A stretch of DNA of 64,000 nt from Terriglobia bacterium (GTDB taxonomy: Bacteria > Acidobacteriota > Terriglobia > 20CM-2-55-15). The translations under genes and the position numbers were made by a program. The notes under the pieces are model-generated. The model was not told the DNA's origin, made no database searches, and worked only from the letters and a program-made list of their open reading frames with translations. How positions within the stretch are numbered: position 1 is the stretch's first letter; the number at the start of each line of letters is the position of its first letter. The DNA lies in contig CAXWPJ010000009.1 of assembly GCA_963664115.2 (NCBI GenBank), positions 768,001 to 832,000 on the forward strand. The letters are read 5' to 3'. Shown here in pieces: positions 44,114 to 51,533 of this stretch.

Positions 44114-44521
44114 TCACTGATTGTCCGGGTTGGAGCCTCCAAGGAATATCGTGAACCCATCGGAGGCTGTGATGTTGCCGCCGTTGGCCCTCATTTCGCC
44201 GGACTTTGCCCGGTACCCTCGAACGGTGACCTTCGTGCCGACCGGCAGAGAATCCCTCGTGAAGCCGCGCCGAAACAGGGAATTCGGAGCACCGGCTTCG
44301 ATTTCCCAGATTTCGGTCGTGCCGTCGTCGGCTTCCACTTCTATGGTGAACCAACTGTGTGGGTTGATGAGTTCCACCTTGGTAATCGTTCCCTCCAACT
44401 GGACCGGCTTGGTGAAATCAAATTCCGCTGAAAACGCATGATGTGCCCAGGTAGGCAAAACCGTCAGGAGCAATAAACTGCCCACACCGGCAACCAGGAC
44501 AAGCAGTCGTTTGGTTCGCAT
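44114..44521 (-). CDS. DUF6152-like secreted small OB-fold-type protein
   Basis: Signal peptide ..PTWA|HHAFSAEFD, INPHSW, WEIEAGAPNSLFRRG, GTKVTVRGYRAK. Family recognised from pattern. Confidence 0.8.
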   Translation of the reverse strand: MRTKRLLVLVAGVGSLLLLTVLPTWAHHAFSAEFDFTKPVQLEGTITKVELINPHSWFTIEVEADDGTTEIWEIEAGAPNSLFRRGFTRDSLPVGTKVTVRGYRAKSGEMRANGGNITASDGFTIFLGGSNPDNQ

Positions 44522-44566
44522 CCGATAACCCTCCTCCTTCGTCGCACCAAATTCTAGGGACCTTTT

Positions 44567-45604
44567 TCAGTCTAGCTCAAGCATTCTGCGGGACCCTTTG
44601 AGCGTGTTCTCCATAAATCTATAGTTTCCCTCGTGACAGGCGTACTCGAATAGATCTTCCGGCCCCTTGTACTCGTCACCGCTCTCGTCACCGCCCCGCC
44701 AGGGCATGACGTACGTCCAGGGTGCAGTCCATGTCGTAGGGTCGTTGACCGTGACCTGATATTCGATGGCGTTCTCGTCGATCCGCGTCAAGCGTTCCAC
44801 AAATTCCATATTGCCCACGGGTAGCAGCGTGTTCCCCTCTATAGCGTTGGCCGTACCCCAGGAATGCCACGTCTGCTTGTCCGTCTTATTGGTCATGTGG
44901 ACCACCAGCGTAGTGCCCTCCCAGTGCCCCCGTGAACTGCCGTTCCATTGCCGGATGCTCGCGTCCAGCGCCGGACGTCCGTCCAAGGGAATGATGCGAG
45001 CGTCGTGCATGCTCTCATAGTGAATCACGACGTATCCGGGAGTCTGTAGAATCTGAATCCCGTGGTTGTACAAGGCCCAGTGTCGCGGGATGACACGTGC
45101 TATGCAACGGCGGTAATCGGAAAGGTCCAACCAGGAGTTATAAACAAGGTCATCAGTAACCGTACCACCATCCCCGACTCGCGATATGTTCCTCGAGGCT
45201 CTTTCCGCTTTTCGCTCGTCCTGCAGCTGCTGAGCTTCGGGGGTGAGCGGAGGCAAGCGACCGTTGGGTGGGTCTATGATCAACGACGTGCGGTTGGTCA
45301 CCCCTGTCTTCGGAACCCGGGGATCGAGGATGCGCGATATCGTTGCGCGGGCAGCGCGACGAGCCGCATTCTGTTCGTCAAGTTCCGCCTTCATTTCAGC
45401 TATTTCGGCCTCGGTGTAAAACTCCTTGTCGCCAAGTTGTTCAGGCCGTTCCATCGGTGTGGCCGTCTCGTACGTGTACACGCCCTGAAGGTCCGGGTCC
45501 CCCCACGGGGTGCGCTGCGTCTGGCCGGTCGCAGGTGCCTGTACGATCAAGACAAGGACAGCCACCATTGCCAGTCCGCCCAGGTTTAGAAATCGATCGC
45601 TCAT
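44567..45604 (-). CDS. Conserved secreted hypothetical protein (DUF6152-associated type)
   Basis: Signal peptide, RTPWGDPDLQG, RTSLIIDPPNGRLP, QTPG, GHWEGTTLVV, EYACHEGN. Confidence 0.85.
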   Translation of the reverse strand: MSDRFLNLGGLAMVAVLVLIVQAPATGQTQRTPWGDPDLQGVYTYETATPMERPEQLGDKEFYTEAEIAEMKAELDEQNAARRAARATISRILDPRVPKTGVTNRTSLIIDPPNGRLPPLTPEAQQLQDERKAERASRNISRVGDGGTVTDDLVYNSWLDLSDYRRCIARVIPRHWALYNHGIQILQTPGYVVIHYESMHDARIIPLDGRPALDASIRQWNGSSRGHWEGTTLVVHMTNKTDKQTWHSWGTANAIEGNTLLPVGNMEFVERLTRIDENAIEYQVTVNDPTTWTAPWTYVMPWRGGDESGDEYKGPEDLFEYACHEGNYRFMENTLKGSRRMLELD

Positions 45605-45631
45605 CTGAAACCTCCTTCCCCGGATCCTAGT

Positions 45632-46480
45632 TCAGTCGTTTGAGTCCTCGATGAAGTGTCCCCACATGAAATCTTCAACGAATTCGATGCACTTGAATTC
45701 CATAAGTTCCGCGTTCGCTTCGATCCGCCGATAGAGCGGCATGCGGATCGTCCAGGGTCGTGTAAACACGTTCGGGTCCTCGATGGTCGCTTCATACATC
45801 AGGTGGTCTGGGCTGATGGGCGTGTAGCGTTCCACCACATGCACGGCCTCACTATAGAAATTTCCCGCCCGATCGAGCCAGGACTGGCCCATCTGATCGG
45901 TGACGTCGACCACCAAAGTATCGCCCTCCCAGTGGCCGATCGACCAGCCCATCCACGATTTATTCGGACTCGGTGGCTCGCGACCTACATGGATCTGGCG
46001 AATCGCACTCGCGTACTCATAGGCGATCAAGATCTGTCCGGGAGTTTGAAAGACCTGGAACGGAAAGGGCAGGTACGTGGCGCGCGGTACTCCAGGCAGA
46101 TAGCATTTAGTCTCTGGATCTCCAGTGGTCTCGTTTGTGACCAGGTCAAGGGGGCGAGTGAAACGCCCCTCGAAGTTCTCTCTCTGTTTTTCTGCGGCCC
46201 ACGGTTGATACGGGATCTCATTGCCCTCGATGACGCTTTGACCTGGGGGCACCGCTCCGAACGCGCCGAGGAGTATCGGGAAGGCGGAAGGTGCCGCAGC
46301 ATGGGGCCGGAGGTCCCAATTCGCCGTGTTGAGAGCCTGCCAGATGCCGTTCAAATCAGGGTTTTCTGTTCCAACCAGACGGGGGGCGGTATAGGGCGCG
46401 TCCTGAGCGGCGGCCGGCGCGACCGCCACCAGGACGCTCGCAACAATCACGATGAGCAGGTTTCCAGGCGGATTTCGCAT
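45632..46480 (-). CDS. Conserved secreted hypothetical protein, paralog of the adjacent gene
   Basis: Signal peptide (..AAA|Q), PDLNGIW, DPETKC, QTPG, GHWEGDTLVV, DPNVFTRPW, EFKCIE. Confidence 0.85.
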   Translation of the reverse strand: MRNPPGNLLIVIVASVLVAVAPAAAQDAPYTAPRLVGTENPDLNGIWQALNTANWDLRPHAAAPSAFPILLGAFGAVPPGQSVIEGNEIPYQPWAAEKQRENFEGRFTRPLDLVTNETTGDPETKCYLPGVPRATYLPFPFQVFQTPGQILIAYEYASAIRQIHVGREPPSPNKSWMGWSIGHWEGDTLVVDVTDQMGQSWLDRAGNFYSEAVHVVERYTPISPDHLMYEATIEDPNVFTRPWTIRMPLYRRIEANAELMEFKCIEFVEDFMWGHFIEDSND

Positions 46481-46721: not shown

Positions 46722-47648
46722 TTAGGAACGCGCTTTCTTAGAACTGTTCCGAAGCACTCGCTCGGTCCACGAATCCCGATCTGGGGTGAACTGAGCCGCA
46801 GCCGACCGTAAATACGGGCGAAATTGAGAGATCCAGTACCGGGCAAACCCGGCCTTGCGGATGCGTGTGAGGGTTTCCCGATAATGCGTCAGCAGGGGCC
46901 CCGCCAAAACGTAGCCCGTCCGTTGTCCGGCAACCTTGGCGGCCTGCGACAACCAGTACACCTTTTCCGGCAGGGTCCCTACTGTCGAAAGTGCCATCAC
47001 AGTAGACATCTCGAATACTGAACGGCCCTGACGTTGCGCCTCGCCGGTGATCTGGTCCCAGGTTCCCCTAACCAAAGCTAAAGCCGGAATTCTCTTCGGG
47101 GGTAGCTTGGCCAGCTCCTCCCTAAATGCGTCCCACTCATTTCGGAGATCCGCCACATCCAACGGTGGAGCATTGATCGTTTTTGCCGCCCGACCAGCGC
47201 TCTGCTCCAGAGCGTCAAGCATTTGATCGACCGTTCCAACTTCGGCATCATTCTCCATCAGTCCCTCTTCCTTCAAAGCGCCTGTGATGTCAGCCAGCAG
47301 GTGACGCCCGGCACCACTCACATCGGCCAGTGCCGCCAGCACCCAGACCGGTGAGGCACGAAAGACCAAAATGCCGATCATTTCCAGACCACCACCAGCG
47401 GTTCTTCGCAGCAGCAAGTCGTTATTCAACTCTTCCTCAGATGGGAATACCCCTTCCACTTGTCCGACCTGTTCGATCAGAAACCGGAGAGTCAACTCCA
47501 CCACGTTGACGTAAAGGCGGCTCTTGCGAACTCCGTCCGGTAAGGCTGAACGTCCGATCTCGTGTAACAGTCCACCCGCAAGCGCCGACGCAGAACACAG
47601 CACCCGCTCCGGAAGGGACAACAGATAGCGGGTAAGTCGCGACTTCAT
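46722..47648 (-). CDS. Hypothetical protein (helical)
   Basis: 308-aa ORF filling the gap between neighbours with natural composition; no motif recognised. Confidence 0.75.
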   Translation of the reverse strand: MKSRLTRYLLSLPERVLCSASALAGGLLHEIGRSALPDGVRKSRLYVNVVELTLRFLIEQVGQVEGVFPSEEELNNDLLLRRTAGGGLEMIGILVFRASPVWVLAALADVSGAGRHLLADITGALKEEGLMENDAEVGTVDQMLDALEQSAGRAAKTINAPPLDVADLRNEWDAFREELAKLPPKRIPALALVRGTWDQITGEAQRQGRSVFEMSTVMALSTVGTLPEKVYWLSQAAKVAGQRTGYVLAGPLLTHYRETLTRIRKAGFARYWISQFRPYLRSAAAQFTPDRDSWTERVLRNSSKKARS

Positions 47649-47748: not shown

Positions 47749-48909
47749 GTGAATGTACTTGCGCTGACCCTCGTGCTCCTCGCGCCGATCCTCCAGAACT
47801 CTTCCGAGGAAGCAACACTGGCCGGGGTTCGTCCCATCCTCCAAAGCTTGCGTGATCAGGCCACCGACTACTCGCCCACACGCGGCGCGACGAGTGGCTT
47901 GACTGAGGTAAAACATCAACTTCGGGACTGGATTGAGTCGAGGCTGGCTTTGCTGCCCGAAGACGGCGACGTCCGCGCCTTCGAGCGAGCGGTCAACGAC
48001 GCGCTCGATGACGCCGAACTTTTCTGCGTCGACGTCGCTGTCGAGTGCACGGACAACATCCTGGGCTATGTGGACATCGTTCGGGCGCACCGCGAACGCG
48101 ACTTCCTGGTCTTCGTGACGGCGATGGGCGTCTGGTGCGGCTACGACGAATCGGCCTACGTATACGCATGGGGAGGCCAGCGATGGGGGCGCATCTGGGA
48201 GAACGAGCAGAACACCTACACGGACGAAGGCTACCTGCCGCAAACGATACACGATGTGAAGATTTCGTCTCCCGATGCGAATGGAGACCGGCTGCTGATG
48301 ACTCTCGGTTCGCAGGCGGCCTGCGCCGGCTCGTTCAAAGACCTCTACGTTCGCGTCTGGGGGGTGGACGCCGATCACCAGACTGCCCCCGTCCTGGACT
48401 GGGCGGAATATGCCAGCGACGGGTATCCGCCGATACGAGGACAGGTCCGCCCCAACGATGTCCTCGTCCAATTCACCGTGGGCGGGATCGTTGCCGGCGA
48501 TAGCCACTCGGCCGTGCGCCACTTCGAAGTGCTTGATGGAACGGCCACACAGATCGATCCCATTGCCGTCAGGCCGCGGGATTTCGTGATCGAGTGGATC
48601 GCCGCCCCATGGCAGGAGAGCCAAACGCGCTCCGAATCGCCGTCTCTGGAAGAATGGCACACCCAACTGCACCGTGTGGATGGAGTCGGAGACTTCCCGG
48701 ATCCGACCCTGCGGTGCACGGCCGGCTCCGGTTTATGGCAGGTGGGGACAAACTTCTACGACGGACCGAAGAGATACTACCGCGTTCTCTGGCAGGGGCC
48801 TTACAGCTTCACCATGGTCGGCGTCAGCGAAACACCCTATCCGGACTGCACAATCGCAGATCCGCAGGGCGATGCCTATCCACAACTGTTCCCACCCGAT
48901 CCGGACTGA
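47749..48909 (+). CDS. Secreted hypothetical protein, beta- and Cys-rich
   Basis: Hydrophobic N-terminus, strong GC3 codon bias in this frame, six Cys. Confidence 0.8.
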   Translation: MNVLALTLVLLAPILQNSSEEATLAGVRPILQSLRDQATDYSPTRGATSGLTEVKHQLRDWIESRLALLPEDGDVRAFERAVNDALDDAELFCVDVAVECTDNILGYVDIVRAHRERDFLVFVTAMGVWCGYDESAYVYAWGGQRWGRIWENEQNTYTDEGYLPQTIHDVKISSPDANGDRLLMTLGSQAACAGSFKDLYVRVWGVDADHQTAPVLDWAEYASDGYPPIRGQVRPNDVLVQFTVGGIVAGDSHSAVRHFEVLDGTATQIDPIAVRPRDFVIEWIAAPWQESQTRSESPSLEEWHTQLHRVDGVGDFPDPTLRCTAGSGLWQVGTNFYDGPKRYYRVLWQGPYSFTMVGVSETPYPDCTIADPQGDAYPQLFPPDPD

Positions 48910-48969: not shown

Positions 48970-50267
48970 CTAGGGCGCCAGGCTGCGGAGAGCTTCGACC
49001 GCCGCCTCGGCGACATCGGTGTTCGGATCCTGGGTCAGAGGCTGGATGTAAGGACGGGATTCGGGCGATCCAATTCGTCCGACAACGCCCAGGAGTTTGG
49101 CGCGAATATCAGCGATTCGGGATGAGCCCACCGGAAAACGCCATTGTCTTGTCCTGCGATTCGGAGGTGGGGATAGAGTTCCTCGAGTCTGCCTTCGTAT
49201 CGACCCAGTTCGAACAGATAGACTTCCGCAATTTGATCCCTGCGGCTATCGAGCGCATCCACGAGTTCCTGAAGATACATTGAGTTCCCGAATGCCACCA
49301 ACGCGAAAGCCTGGGCCAAACGAACCTCGGCATCACCCTCTTCAGCGAAACGCTCGACGAACGAAGATGCGTCGTAATCCAGACGGGCCAATCCCCGGGC
49401 TGAGAGTTCGCGATAGGAGTCTTCGTCACTGTCGAGCAGGGATTCGAACAGTTCGACGGCCGACGGTTCCCGCAACAAACCGATCGACTCGAGTGCCAGA
49501 TTACGCGTGTCACCGTCGTCACCAGTCCGAAACAGGTTTGATAGTGCAGGATACGCGGCCCGGTACCCCGTGCGACCCACCGATAAGATGGCCTCGCGAG
49601 CAACGCGTTCATCCTCATCACGGATAAATCGTGTCAGTGCCGGACCCGAATCCTGACTTCCAATGTCACCCATGGTCCGTATCATTGCGATCTGGACTTC
49701 CCAGTCTTCCCGATGCCGCGGTCCATCCAGCTCTTCGATCAACGCAGGCAGTTGATCTGCGGCGTTGAGGGAGCCGAGAGCATTCGCTGCAGCGACCCGC
49801 ACTTCCCAATCGAAGTCATTCTGGAGAGCCTCTACCAATACCTCTTTTGCGCTTTCGTCTACGAATACGTTCGGGCCCACGTTCAGTTGCTCGTCTTCAC
49901 TGAAGACGCGCGTCACATCGGTTATGAAGTTCCAGAACCCTTGCTCATCAGCCACAGGAATGTAGAGTCGGAGCAGAGAATCGATGGCCTGTAGTCGGAC
50001 GTCTAACTGAAAATCTGCGAGTAGCGCCTCACTGAGGGTTGGAATTGCAGATTGGTCTCGAATTCTTCCGAGTGCTCGAACAATGGATGTCCGAATCTCA
50101 CTACTCTGTTCGTTCTTGAAAGCGTCGCCCAAGAGAGGCACGGCATCCCGGTTTCCAAGCACAGCCATCGATTCGACGGCATCGCTCCTTTCTCTTGGGC
50201 TGGCACTGTCCAGGGCCGGCGTCTGCGCCAGCGCCAGGACCAGAATGAGTTGCAAGAACTGTGACAT
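48970..50267 (-). pseudogene. Secreted HEAT-repeat protein, frameshifted near its C-terminus by a 38-bp insertion
   Basis: Repeated L...D..VR..A..ALG HEAT units. Removing 49123..49160 restores ...LYPHLRSRIADIRAKLLGVVGRIGSPESRPYIQPLTQDPNTDVAEAAVEALRSLAP* (419 aa). As written the ORF ends at 49035 with a non-HEAT tail. Confidence 0.85.
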
Positions 50268-50446: not shown

Positions 50447-51394
50447 TCAGCGGGCGCCAAAGTGGCAATCACAGGATTCGAATTCGTCTCCATCTGGACC
50501 GCACTTCTCAATCTGAATGGTTGTGTGATCGATCTGATACCGCTTGTGCACAATCTCTCTCACACGGCTGAGAACGTCGGATCGGGCATGACTGTTCTCG
50601 CCCACCACAACATGACAGCTCATGGCCACCACTCCCGACGTCAGCGTCCACACGTGCAGATCGTGGACAGACAGAACTTCTTGCGCGCCAAGGAGATTGT
50701 CTTTCAATGACGTTAGGTTGATATGGGCGGGCGCTCCTTCGAGAAGGATGTCGACGGCGTCACAAATGAGCAGCCAAGAACTGGACAGAATTAGAACCGC
50801 AACAATCGCACTGATGATGGCGTCGGCCGAGTTCCAGTCAAAAAAGATGATAGCCAGACTCGCGAGGATTGCCCCGATCGAGCCCAGGGCATCACTCAAC
50901 ACATGAATAAAGGCGCCGCGGACATTAAGGCTTTGGGACTGACTTCCGAACAGAACGTAAGCGCTGACAAGGTTCGCCAACAGGCCTCCCGACGCGACCA
51001 ACAGCATGAGGTTGCCACGGACCGGTTGAGGCTCCATCAGCCTCTGGTAGGCCTCGTAGAAAATGAACATGGAAATCAGGACAAGAAAAACGCCGTTCAG
51101 GAGCGCGGCAAGGATTTCGACTCGGTAAAACCCGTAAGTCTTCCCCTCGGGCGCGGGTCGGCTTGCAAACCAGAACGCGAACAAACTCAGGCCCAGCGCC
51201 CCGACATCGGTGAACATGTGGCCGGCGTCGGCCAACAACGCAAGGGAATTGCTATAGATACCGCCGATTAGCTCGATCACCAGGACGGTCGCAGTGATGA
51301 CCAGGGCAATCCGCAAACTTCCGCCAGCGTCAGAGACACGCCCTTCGGGGGATTCTTGGTGGTCGTGGGTGTGGGGTCCCGCGTGGGAAGACAT
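50447..51394 (-). CDS. czcD: Cation diffusion facilitator (CzcD/ZitB-type Zn/Co/Cd exporter)
   Basis: His-rich N-terminus, SLALLADAGHMFTD, TYGFYRVEILAA, HVLSDALGS, VHDLHVW, HTTIQIE. Confidence 0.93.
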   Translation of the reverse strand: MSSHAGPHTHDHQESPEGRVSDAGGSLRIALVITATVLVIELIGGIYSNSLALLADAGHMFTDVGALGLSLFAFWFASRPAPEGKTYGFYRVEILAALLNGVFLVLISMFIFYEAYQRLMEPQPVRGNLMLLVASGGLLANLVSAYVLFGSQSQSLNVRGAFIHVLSDALGSIGAILASLAIIFFDWNSADAIISAIVAVLILSSSWLLICDAVDILLEGAPAHINLTSLKDNLLGAQEVLSVHDLHVWTLTSGVVAMSCHVVVGENSHARSDVLSRVREIVHKRYQIDHTTIQIEKCGPDGDEFESCDCHFGAR

Positions 51395-51533
51395 CGCAGA
51401 CACAATTATACTACGCGGACCCCGGCAGGGGTCAGTGCGATAACAGTTGTTTAAACAGACTGTTATAATGACCCGTTTTTTCGACACAGCCTACATCCGC
51501 GCTTCATTAGAGACGCGACATCAAGGGGAATTT

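What the first reader, a model, noticed from the sequence alone, without database searches (positions are those of the whole stretch)
44114..46480. Three-gene secreted module: His-His N-terminal DUF6152-like protein plus two Cys-pair beta-rich paralogs (candidate uncharacterised periplasmic metallo-system)
Seen: three co-oriented genes with 27-45-nt gaps, each with a purine-rich SD and a Sec signal. The small protein's predicted cleavage (TWA|HH) leaves His1-His2, and it has a third His in INPHSW. The two larger proteins share PDLxG(I/V), a central Cys, QTPG, GHWEGxTLVV, DP..(W/F)T.PW and a terminal E(Y/F)xC(H/I)E. Known: an N-terminal His plus a distal His forms the copper histidine brace in LPMOs and CopC. 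Inference: a small Cu-binding subunit pairs with disulfide-bonded barrel subunits whose C-terminal CHE/CIE could complete a metal site, giving a heteromeric periplasmic redox enzyme or metal-handling system. No function is established to my knowledge.
Basis: partly seen in the sequence, partly recalled or inferred. Interest (0 to 1): 0.75.

Follow-up and report, generated by a model that had tools for sequence, protein, structure and literature searches.

The report
Massively expanded His-His plus barrel cassette
These three genes encode a small exported protein predicted to start with two histidines and two related barrel proteins; they are one of well over a hundred such modules in this genome, and they likely form an unstudied family of metal-dependent enzymes that process small organic molecules outside the cytoplasm.

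Summary
In detail: three genes, gaps of 27 and 45 nt, all motifs present. The small protein is DUF6152, an OB fold. The two large ones have no Pfam family; B models as a FABP-like barrel, and A is homologous. This genome holds 125 small and 144 large ORFs (about 6% of genes), including 8 fusions. 100 of 125 small genes have a large gene alongside, against 4.9% at random. His1, His2 and His29 are near invariant in 861 sequences. The A+B+small triple recurs in Acidobacteriota and Gammaproteobacteria, in shuffled order. The CHE motif belongs to B-type only. Best reading (0.5): a periplasmic heteromeric metalloenzyme family with a constant metal site and a variable substrate barrel. Metal binding, copper and the interface are untested: the complex predictor was unavailable and inter-chain covariation stayed at noise. 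It is not an LPMO or CopC member (different fold). I found no paper on it. This scan noted the family before on other DNA (16 notes, at least 14 genomes).

The parts
45632..46480 (-). Gene A: secreted A-type barrel protein, 282 aa, no Pfam or NCBIfam family; Cys126 and Cys264; invariant Arg161, Glu217, Asp235
   Evidence: barrel fold inferred from homology to B and to the fusion model
44567..45604 (-). Gene B: secreted B-type barrel protein, 345 aa; FABP/calycin-like barrel in its own AlphaFold2 model; Cys167 and Cys323, His200, C-H-E-G-N tail
44114..44521 (-). Gene C: DUF6152 (PF19649) small secreted protein, 135 aa, HHAF subtype; OB fold inferred from the model of a fused paralogue
44438..44443 (-). 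His27-His28 codons, the predicted mature His1-His2
44357..44359 (-). His55 (mature His29) of the NPH motif
44297..44299 (-). Glu75 (mature Glu49), candidate fourth ligand, a cross-strand neighbour of His29
   Evidence: 792 of 855; strand register
44630..44638 (-). B Cys323-His324-Glu325, conserved in B-type only
45689..45691 (-). A Cys264 (pairs by conservation with Cys126 at 46103-46105)
   Evidence: both Cys present in 1044 of 1057 sequences

Best explanation
The cassette likely encodes a periplasmic heteromeric metalloenzyme, one member of a family expanded to more than 100 copies per genome, in which the small OB-fold subunit would supply a constant metal site and the barrel subunits a variable substrate pocket. 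Shown here: gene layout, conservation, co-location, natural fusions, co-divergence and predicted folds. Inferred steps: (1) signal peptidase exposes His1-His2; (2) the His1 amine and imidazole, His2, His29 and probably Glu49 bind a divalent transition metal; (3) the small subunit docks on the lid of a calycin barrel, whose Cys pair forms a disulfide pinning the C-terminal tail; (4) in this subtype A and B form a barrel heterodimer, and B may add His200/His324/Glu325 near the lid; (5) a small organic molecule held by the barrel is presented to the metal and cleaved or oxidised as part of periplasmic scavenging. I put copper-type oxidative chemistry at about half of this reading and Ni/Zn/Co Lewis-acid chemistry at the other half.
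For: Constant site: H1 841 of 842, H2 843 of 843, H29 855 of 856, E49 792 of 855 non-gap positions in 861 unique sequences, while genome paralogues share a median 29% (small) and 26% (large) identity. Expansion: 125 small and 144 large ORFs here, 112 DUF6152 matches in closed genome G006, and 150 scored of 238 candidates in G169. Many diverged copies with dedicated partners suit substrate diversity better than delivery of one metal (inference). Partnership: 100 of 125 small genes have a same-strand large domain within 1.5 kb against 4.9% at random; 8 fusions; 120 fusion homologues. The fusion model has pLDDT 92.5 and pTM 0.88, which implies a defined domain packing. Mantel r 0.54 on 50 non-redundant pairs, null maximum 0.24. 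Triple: of 80 A-type loci, 73 have B, 58 a small gene and 56 both, in the orders ABS, SBA and ASB; 93 of 100 triples use an HHAF/HHSF small subunit. Context: recurrent downstream neighbours include MBL-fold (14), PQQ (6), NHL (6), amidohydrolase (4), arylsulfotransferase (4) and sulfatase (3) proteins, from 235 neighbours. 11 barrel ORFs carry an N-terminal VOC/glyoxalase domain. The barrel fold is shared with an enzyme, nanoKAZ luciferase (Z 8.7, rmsd 3.2, 116 aligned).
Against: No activity, metal or substrate is shown. The most frequent downstream neighbour is the membrane protein DUF6644 (16 of 235; 14 of 17 genome copies near modules, p 4e-11), and 1 of 17 members weakly hits CopD (E 0.011), which fits metal handling as well. 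The published secreted N-terminal-His families DUF4198 and DUF6702 bound metal with weak or no oxidase/peroxidase activity (PMC12537917, passages). 13 of 80 A-type loci are A-B only, and 22 of 80 have no same-strand small gene (some contigs are truncated). A-B distances correlate far better (r 0.70) than small-A (0.31) or small-B (0.30), so the small subunit may be optional or shared. 25 of 125 small genes lack a barrel neighbour. The Mantel signal is also expected from co-duplication alone. The best fold matches are non-enzymes (SAHS, FABP, SSB) at middling Z of 8-9. Neighbour enrichment may only reflect shared islands of secreted proteins.
Confidence: 0.5

Rival explanations
1. Metal capture and delivery: the His-His OB protein is a non-catalytic metallochaperone or 'anglerase' analogue that hands Cu, Ni or Co to the DUF6644 membrane pair (as CopC does to CopD) or to neighbouring secreted metalloenzymes.
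For: DUF6644 is the top neighbour, has an invariant TM His and Lys, and shows weak DUF2214 (4 of 17) and CopD (1 of 17) hits. Precedent: DUF4198 and DUF6702 bind Ni tightly with little activity (PMC12537917). Many neighbours are metalloenzymes. The small domain also pairs with a second, unrelated partner family (10 of 10 near modules; one fusion).
Against: The genome has only 17 DUF6644 genes for 125 small genes, and only 7 of 80 A-type loci carry one. This locus has none. One metal hardly needs about 55 clusters at 50% identity, each with its own barrel. No Cop, Cus or Nik family appeared among the 26 neighbour and fusion representatives scanned.
Confidence: 0.25
2. A metal-assisted binding or sequestering repertoire: each module captures a different small molecule (ligand in the barrel, coordinated by the metal) for uptake or detoxification, with no catalysis.
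For: The closest folds are ligand-binding FABP/SAHS barrels. Constant-plus-variable architecture and the expansion fit a receptor repertoire. TonB-type receptor-like genes (identified by inspection, not scanned) are among the neighbours (6).
Against: No ABC permease or signalling domain recurs as a neighbour or fusion. Invariant Arg161/Glu217/Asp235 and the VOC fusions would be unexplained extras.
Confidence: 0.15
3. The histidines do not bind a metal (they serve in acid-base catalysis, cofactor attachment or docking), or the A-B barrel dimer is the functional unit and C an optional accessory.
For: A-B-only loci exist (13 of 80); A and B co-diverge more tightly with each other than with C.
Against: Three invariant His at a processed N-terminus, plus a conserved Glu, is a typical metal-ligand set. 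An N-terminal His chelates regardless of fold (PMC12537917, Introduction).
Confidence: 0.1

Closest known systems
Pfam DUF6152 (PF19649)
   Same: Gene C is a member: E 6e-31, 106.8 bits against a cut-off of 27.
   Different: The family has no known function. Its barrel partner has no Pfam or NCBIfam family despite 11,586 clusters at 50% identity hit by A.
Copper histidine-brace proteins (LPMOs, CopC, pMMO CuB; PMC12537917 Introduction)
   Same: Secreted, with a predicted His1 and a further invariant His.
   Different: OB fold rather than Ig-like; an extra invariant His2 and a conserved Glu; a barrel partner; the metal is unknown.
Signal-strapping metalloproteins DUF4198, DUF6702, Ang-1, Ang-2 (PMC12537917)
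   Same: Bacterial secreted N-terminal-His proteins of unknown function.
   Different: Other families and folds. 'DUF6152' is absent from that paper's main text. His1 is conserved in 79% and 65% there against over 99% here. No barrel partner or large expansion appeared in the passages I read.
Calycin/FABP-like barrels (SAHS, FABP5, nanoKAZ luciferase, nitrobindin)
   Same: Fold of the large subunits: Z 9.2, rmsd 3.3, 115 aligned to SAHS for the fusion; Z 8.2, rmsd 3.4, 117 aligned to FABP5 for B.
   Different: 8-15% identity, long lid insertions, an invariant Cys pair, bacterial and secreted, paired with an OB-fold subunit.
CusF and CcmE (periplasmic OB-fold metal or heme chaperones; recalled, from no call)
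   Same: A small periplasmic OB fold that uses His.
   Different: No PDB sequence matched the C profile at E up to 5; their ligands are not at the N-terminus (recalled).

Membership tests
DUF6152 (PF19649) | Score above the Pfam gathering cut-off | tested here: met
   106.8 bits against 27
Histidine-brace proteins (LPMO/CopC type) | His at residue 1 after signal cleavage | tested here: inconclusive
   Strongly predicted (Ala at -1 in 111 of 125; signal features in 124 of 124), but by heuristic; cleavage not shown
Histidine-brace proteins (LPMO/CopC type) | Second His placed next to His1 to give a T-shaped 3N site | tested here: inconclusive
   His29 invariant. Couplings of residues 4-7 to 31, 51 and 85 are z 3.0-3.7, below the shuffled maximum of 4.6. 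The structure tool returns no coordinates.
Histidine-brace proteins (LPMO/CopC type) | Binds copper | not testable with these tools
   Needs ICP-MS or EPR
LPMO / CopC families | Ig-like beta-sandwich fold and family profile match | tested here: not met
   The domain models as an OB fold: Z 8.8, rmsd 2.8, 81 aligned to SSB in a fused paralogue. Pfam scan of C gave only DUF6152 and a weak DUF5666 hit.
Calycin/FABP-like barrels | Antiparallel barrel superposable on FABP, with a GxW-type first strand (motif recalled) | tested here: met
   middling Z of 8-9; PDLNGIW in A, PDLQGVY in B
FABP/lipocalin sequence families | Pfam profile match | tested here: not met
   No Pfam family at E up to 0.1 for A or B
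CopC-CopD-like uptake system | Linked CopD permease | tested here: inconclusive
   None at this locus; DUF6644 near 14 of 17 cases in the genome; a CopD hit in 1 of 17, below significance

The most novel reading that the evidence does not exclude
DUF6152 is a modular metal 'warhead' with a new His1-His2-His29-Glu49 site. It docks on hundreds of interchangeable calycin barrels (and on a second partner fold) to form a P450-scale superfamily of periplasmic oxidases or lyases, fed with electrons by DUF6644 membrane pairs. It takes up about 6% of the genes of some uncultured Acidobacteriota and Gammaproteobacteria and would be a major unrecognised route for degrading dissolved organic compounds.
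Probability: 0.25. Interest if true: 0.92.

Novelty: categorically new. Interest (0 to 1): 0.7.

Why it matters
A two-family module that fills about 6% of a genome's genes (261 ORFs of about 4,335 rough calls) and has no function in print is a large gap in the physiology of uncultured Acidobacteriota and Gammaproteobacteria. The principle of an N-terminal His chelate is known; its use on an OB fold, paired with a variable barrel, is not described in the library searched. The invariant residues, the natural single-chain fusions and this compact three-gene cassette make the question directly testable in E. coli. The score is held down because no metal, interface or activity is shown.

Tried and rejected
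Inter-chain covariation: 385 pairs gave a top Z of 5.5 against shuffled 5.9 and 6.6. 629 pairs (Neff 453) gave a top pair, small Asn54 with barrel Glu155, at Z 6.0 against shuffled maxima of 5.1-6.5, and split halves correlated at 0.09. This is no support either way. His-His couplings are artefacts of invariant columns and were dropped. Expression: 5 RNA runs held only 0.07-0.19 of the words. 4 were laid: low-depth exact contigs cover parts of B and C, but also intergenic DNA, so transcription is not shown. PDB sequence searches for A, C, the C profile and the DUF6644 profile found nothing meaningful. The Atlas gave 30 unnamed clusters for A; its automatic 'DUF1329' name has no Pfam support. 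The wide structural search of B could not be run; only Foldseek and its re-alignment were. A itself and C alone were not folded. An assembly artefact is rejected: 116 and 135 clusters remain at 90% identity, and a closed genome shows 112 copies. The HemJ-like His/Lys heme reading of DUF6644 is recalled only; one search gave no usable paper. CopC and PCuAC were not found in G000, and one DUF4198 was; this is weak. Paper searches: 'DUF6152' 0; PF19649/DUF6644/PF20349/IPR046150 0; two searches returned 0; searches listed nothing on this family (listings only).

Full report
Observation. The three ORFs lie on the minus strand: A 46480-45632, B 45604-44567, C 44521-44114. The gaps are 27 and 45 nt, and every listed motif is present; SD-like stretches precede the ATGs. 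C is DUF6152 (E 6e-31). A and B match no Pfam or NCBIfam family and are paralogues (33%). The cassette sits among housekeeping genes (gltX-, accD- and hslUV-like by inspection). A Terriglobia MAG shares the cassette at 93-95% nucleotide identity with different flanks, so the three genes stay together through rearrangement, and the host is likely a Terriglobia acidobacterium.

The genome-wide picture. G000 (4.89 Mb, 97% complete, 1% contaminated) has 125 DUF6152 matches, 124 over the cut-off. An iterated search found 125 small ORFs, 144 large ORFs (146 domains) and 8 small-large fusions: 261 ORFs of about 4,335 rough gene calls. Paralogues are old and diverse: median identity 29% and 26%, with 116 and 135 clusters at 90%. 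10 of 12 other genomes of the family carry 27-80 matches at E 1e-20 or better, against 1 of 8 genomes from other families of the class. Closed genome G006 has 112. G169, a Ca. Rariloculaceae gammaproteobacterium, has 150 scored of 238 candidates, and G170 has 21. Across the phylum only 14 of 151 genomes matched, so the trait is patchy. A alone hits 11,586 clusters at 50% identity.

The small subunit. Among 861 unique sequences, His1 is 841 of 842, His2 843 of 843, His29 855 of 856, Trp46 811 of 853 and Glu49 792 of 855 (non-gap counts). Residue -1 is Ala in 111 of 125 genome copies. All 124 HH/YH copies have signal features, and 0 of 628 other secreted-like genes yield HH (heuristic). I folded a natural fusion paralogue (L001:2447-3397, 121 sequences): pLDDT 92.5, pTM 0.88. 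Its N-terminal domain is an OB fold (Z 8.8 to SSB). The strand register from covariation (30-50, 31-47, 33-47) and the model's strands put His29 and Glu49 at adjacent ends of strands 2 and 3. Couplings that place the N-terminal helix over this face are consistent but individually below the shuffled maximum. No coordinates were available, so convergence of the His residues is inferred.

The large subunits. B's own model (pLDDT 83.8, pTM 0.82) and the fusion's C-terminal domain match FABP/SAHS/nanoKAZ barrels at middling Z of 8-9. In 1,257 unique sequences the near-invariant residues are Cys126, Arg161, Gly178, Glu217, Asp235 and Cys264. Both Cys occur in 1,044 of 1,057 sequences, as expected for a disulfide. 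The motif after the second Cys is subtype-specific: HE in 305 of 320 B-type, 7 of 291 A-type, and variable in 453 others. B-type also keeps His200 in 81%.

Partnership. 100 of 125 small genes have a same-strand barrel domain within 1.5 kb, against 4.9% for random positions; 25 do not, and 35 of 146 barrel domains have no small gene within 3 kb. Small and large distances correlate across 50 non-redundant pairs (r 0.54, null maximum 0.24), which co-duplication alone could produce. Of 80 A-type loci from Terriglobia, Vicinamibacteria and Gammaproteobacteria, 73 have B, 58 a small gene and 56 both; plain ABS order occurs 35 times, SBA 8 and AB alone 13. From the other side, all 33 small-gene loci of at least 5 kb (of 80 fetched) have a barrel, and 17 have both types. 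In 100 triples A-B distances correlate at 0.70, and small-A and small-B at about 0.3. The complex predictor was unavailable and inter-chain covariation did not exceed noise, so physical binding rests on the fusions and the fusion model.

Context. In G000 the families enriched beside modules are DUF6644 membrane proteins (14 of 17), an unnamed secreted family (10 of 10) that in 9 of 10 cases adjoins an HHxH-type small gene and is fused to it once, NHL propellers (10 of 23) and MBL-fold proteins (15 of 46; 11 of 30). In fetched loci the recurrent downstream neighbours are DUF6644, MBL-fold, PQQ, NHL, amidohydrolase, arylsulfotransferase and sulfatase proteins (26 representatives scanned, drawn from 33 neighbour clusters and the fusion list). 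11 barrel ORFs carry an N-terminal VOC domain.

Mechanism. A constant His/Glu site joined to a highly variable ligand-binding barrel, multiplied more than 100-fold among secreted catabolic enzymes, is best read as an enzyme family with diversified substrates (0.5). Rivals are metal delivery (0.25; DUF6644, and the non-catalytic DUF4198/DUF6702 precedent), a binding repertoire (0.15) and non-metal roles (0.1). Copper is not singled out by any result here.

Literature. For PMC12537917 I saw the abstract, the outline, the Introduction, 12 passages and a term search of 5 supplementary files (one cut when stored; '6152' hits shown were unrelated). It does not mention DUF6152 in its main text. All other papers were seen as listings only. 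Searches for the family names returned nothing; the library omits most subscription journals, and bioRxiv supplements are closed. The CusF, CcmE, HemJ and GxW comparisons are recalled. Earlier notes of this scan report the same family on other DNA. They were used as leads only; the signal-strapping paper came from one of them.

Verdict. The feature is real and undescribed in the library searched. It works like an N-terminal-His metalloprotein but is not an LPMO or CopC member. Interest 0.7.

Noticed in passing
G000:C10:440234-440914 (L012:735-1415) and 9 paralogues; fusion at L357:2912-3496: A second, unnamed secreted partner family with no Pfam hit. It adjoins HHxH-type DUF6152 genes in 9 of 10 cases and is fused to DUF6152 once, so the small domain pairs with two unrelated partner families.
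   Followed up: partly
L011:3289-4338; L018:6181-6666; 17 copies in G000: DUF6644 membrane proteins, often in tandem pairs beside modules, with invariant His31 and Lys99, a pattern I recall from HemJ/CopD-like proteins; could be heme-binding electron donors or permeases.
   Followed up: partly
L068:1258-3036, L072, L091, L095: B-type barrels fused behind a secreted VOC/glyoxalase region (11 cases), mostly in Gammaproteobacteria.
   Followed up: partly
G000:C2:333464-335074 (in L008): A natural two-barrel fusion followed by a DUF6152 gene, a Rosetta-stone hint for barrel-barrel dimers.
   Followed up: no
L302:6997-7395: Small secreted protein with no Pfam hit, found 7 times directly downstream of modules; once fused to a barrel (L303).
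   Followed up: no
G000:C12:439511-440074; C2:991476-991892; C9:1232064-1233994: Aberrant copies: an internal tandem duplication in a small gene, a Tyr-His start, and an apparently frameshifted barrel gene, suggesting ongoing birth and death.
   Followed up: no
G000 genome-wide: Two transposase-like families with 62 and 49 copies, and identical module copies on different contigs; the genome is heavily rearranged relative to close relatives.
   Followed up: no
window 46722-47648 (-) and 47749-48909 (+): Two flanking ORFs (308 and 386 aa) with no Pfam match; the second looks secreted and has several Cys.
   Followed up: no
window 49035-50267 (-): Secreted-looking HEAT-repeat protein next to a CDF-type metal transporter-like gene (50447-51487, by inspection).
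   Followed up: no
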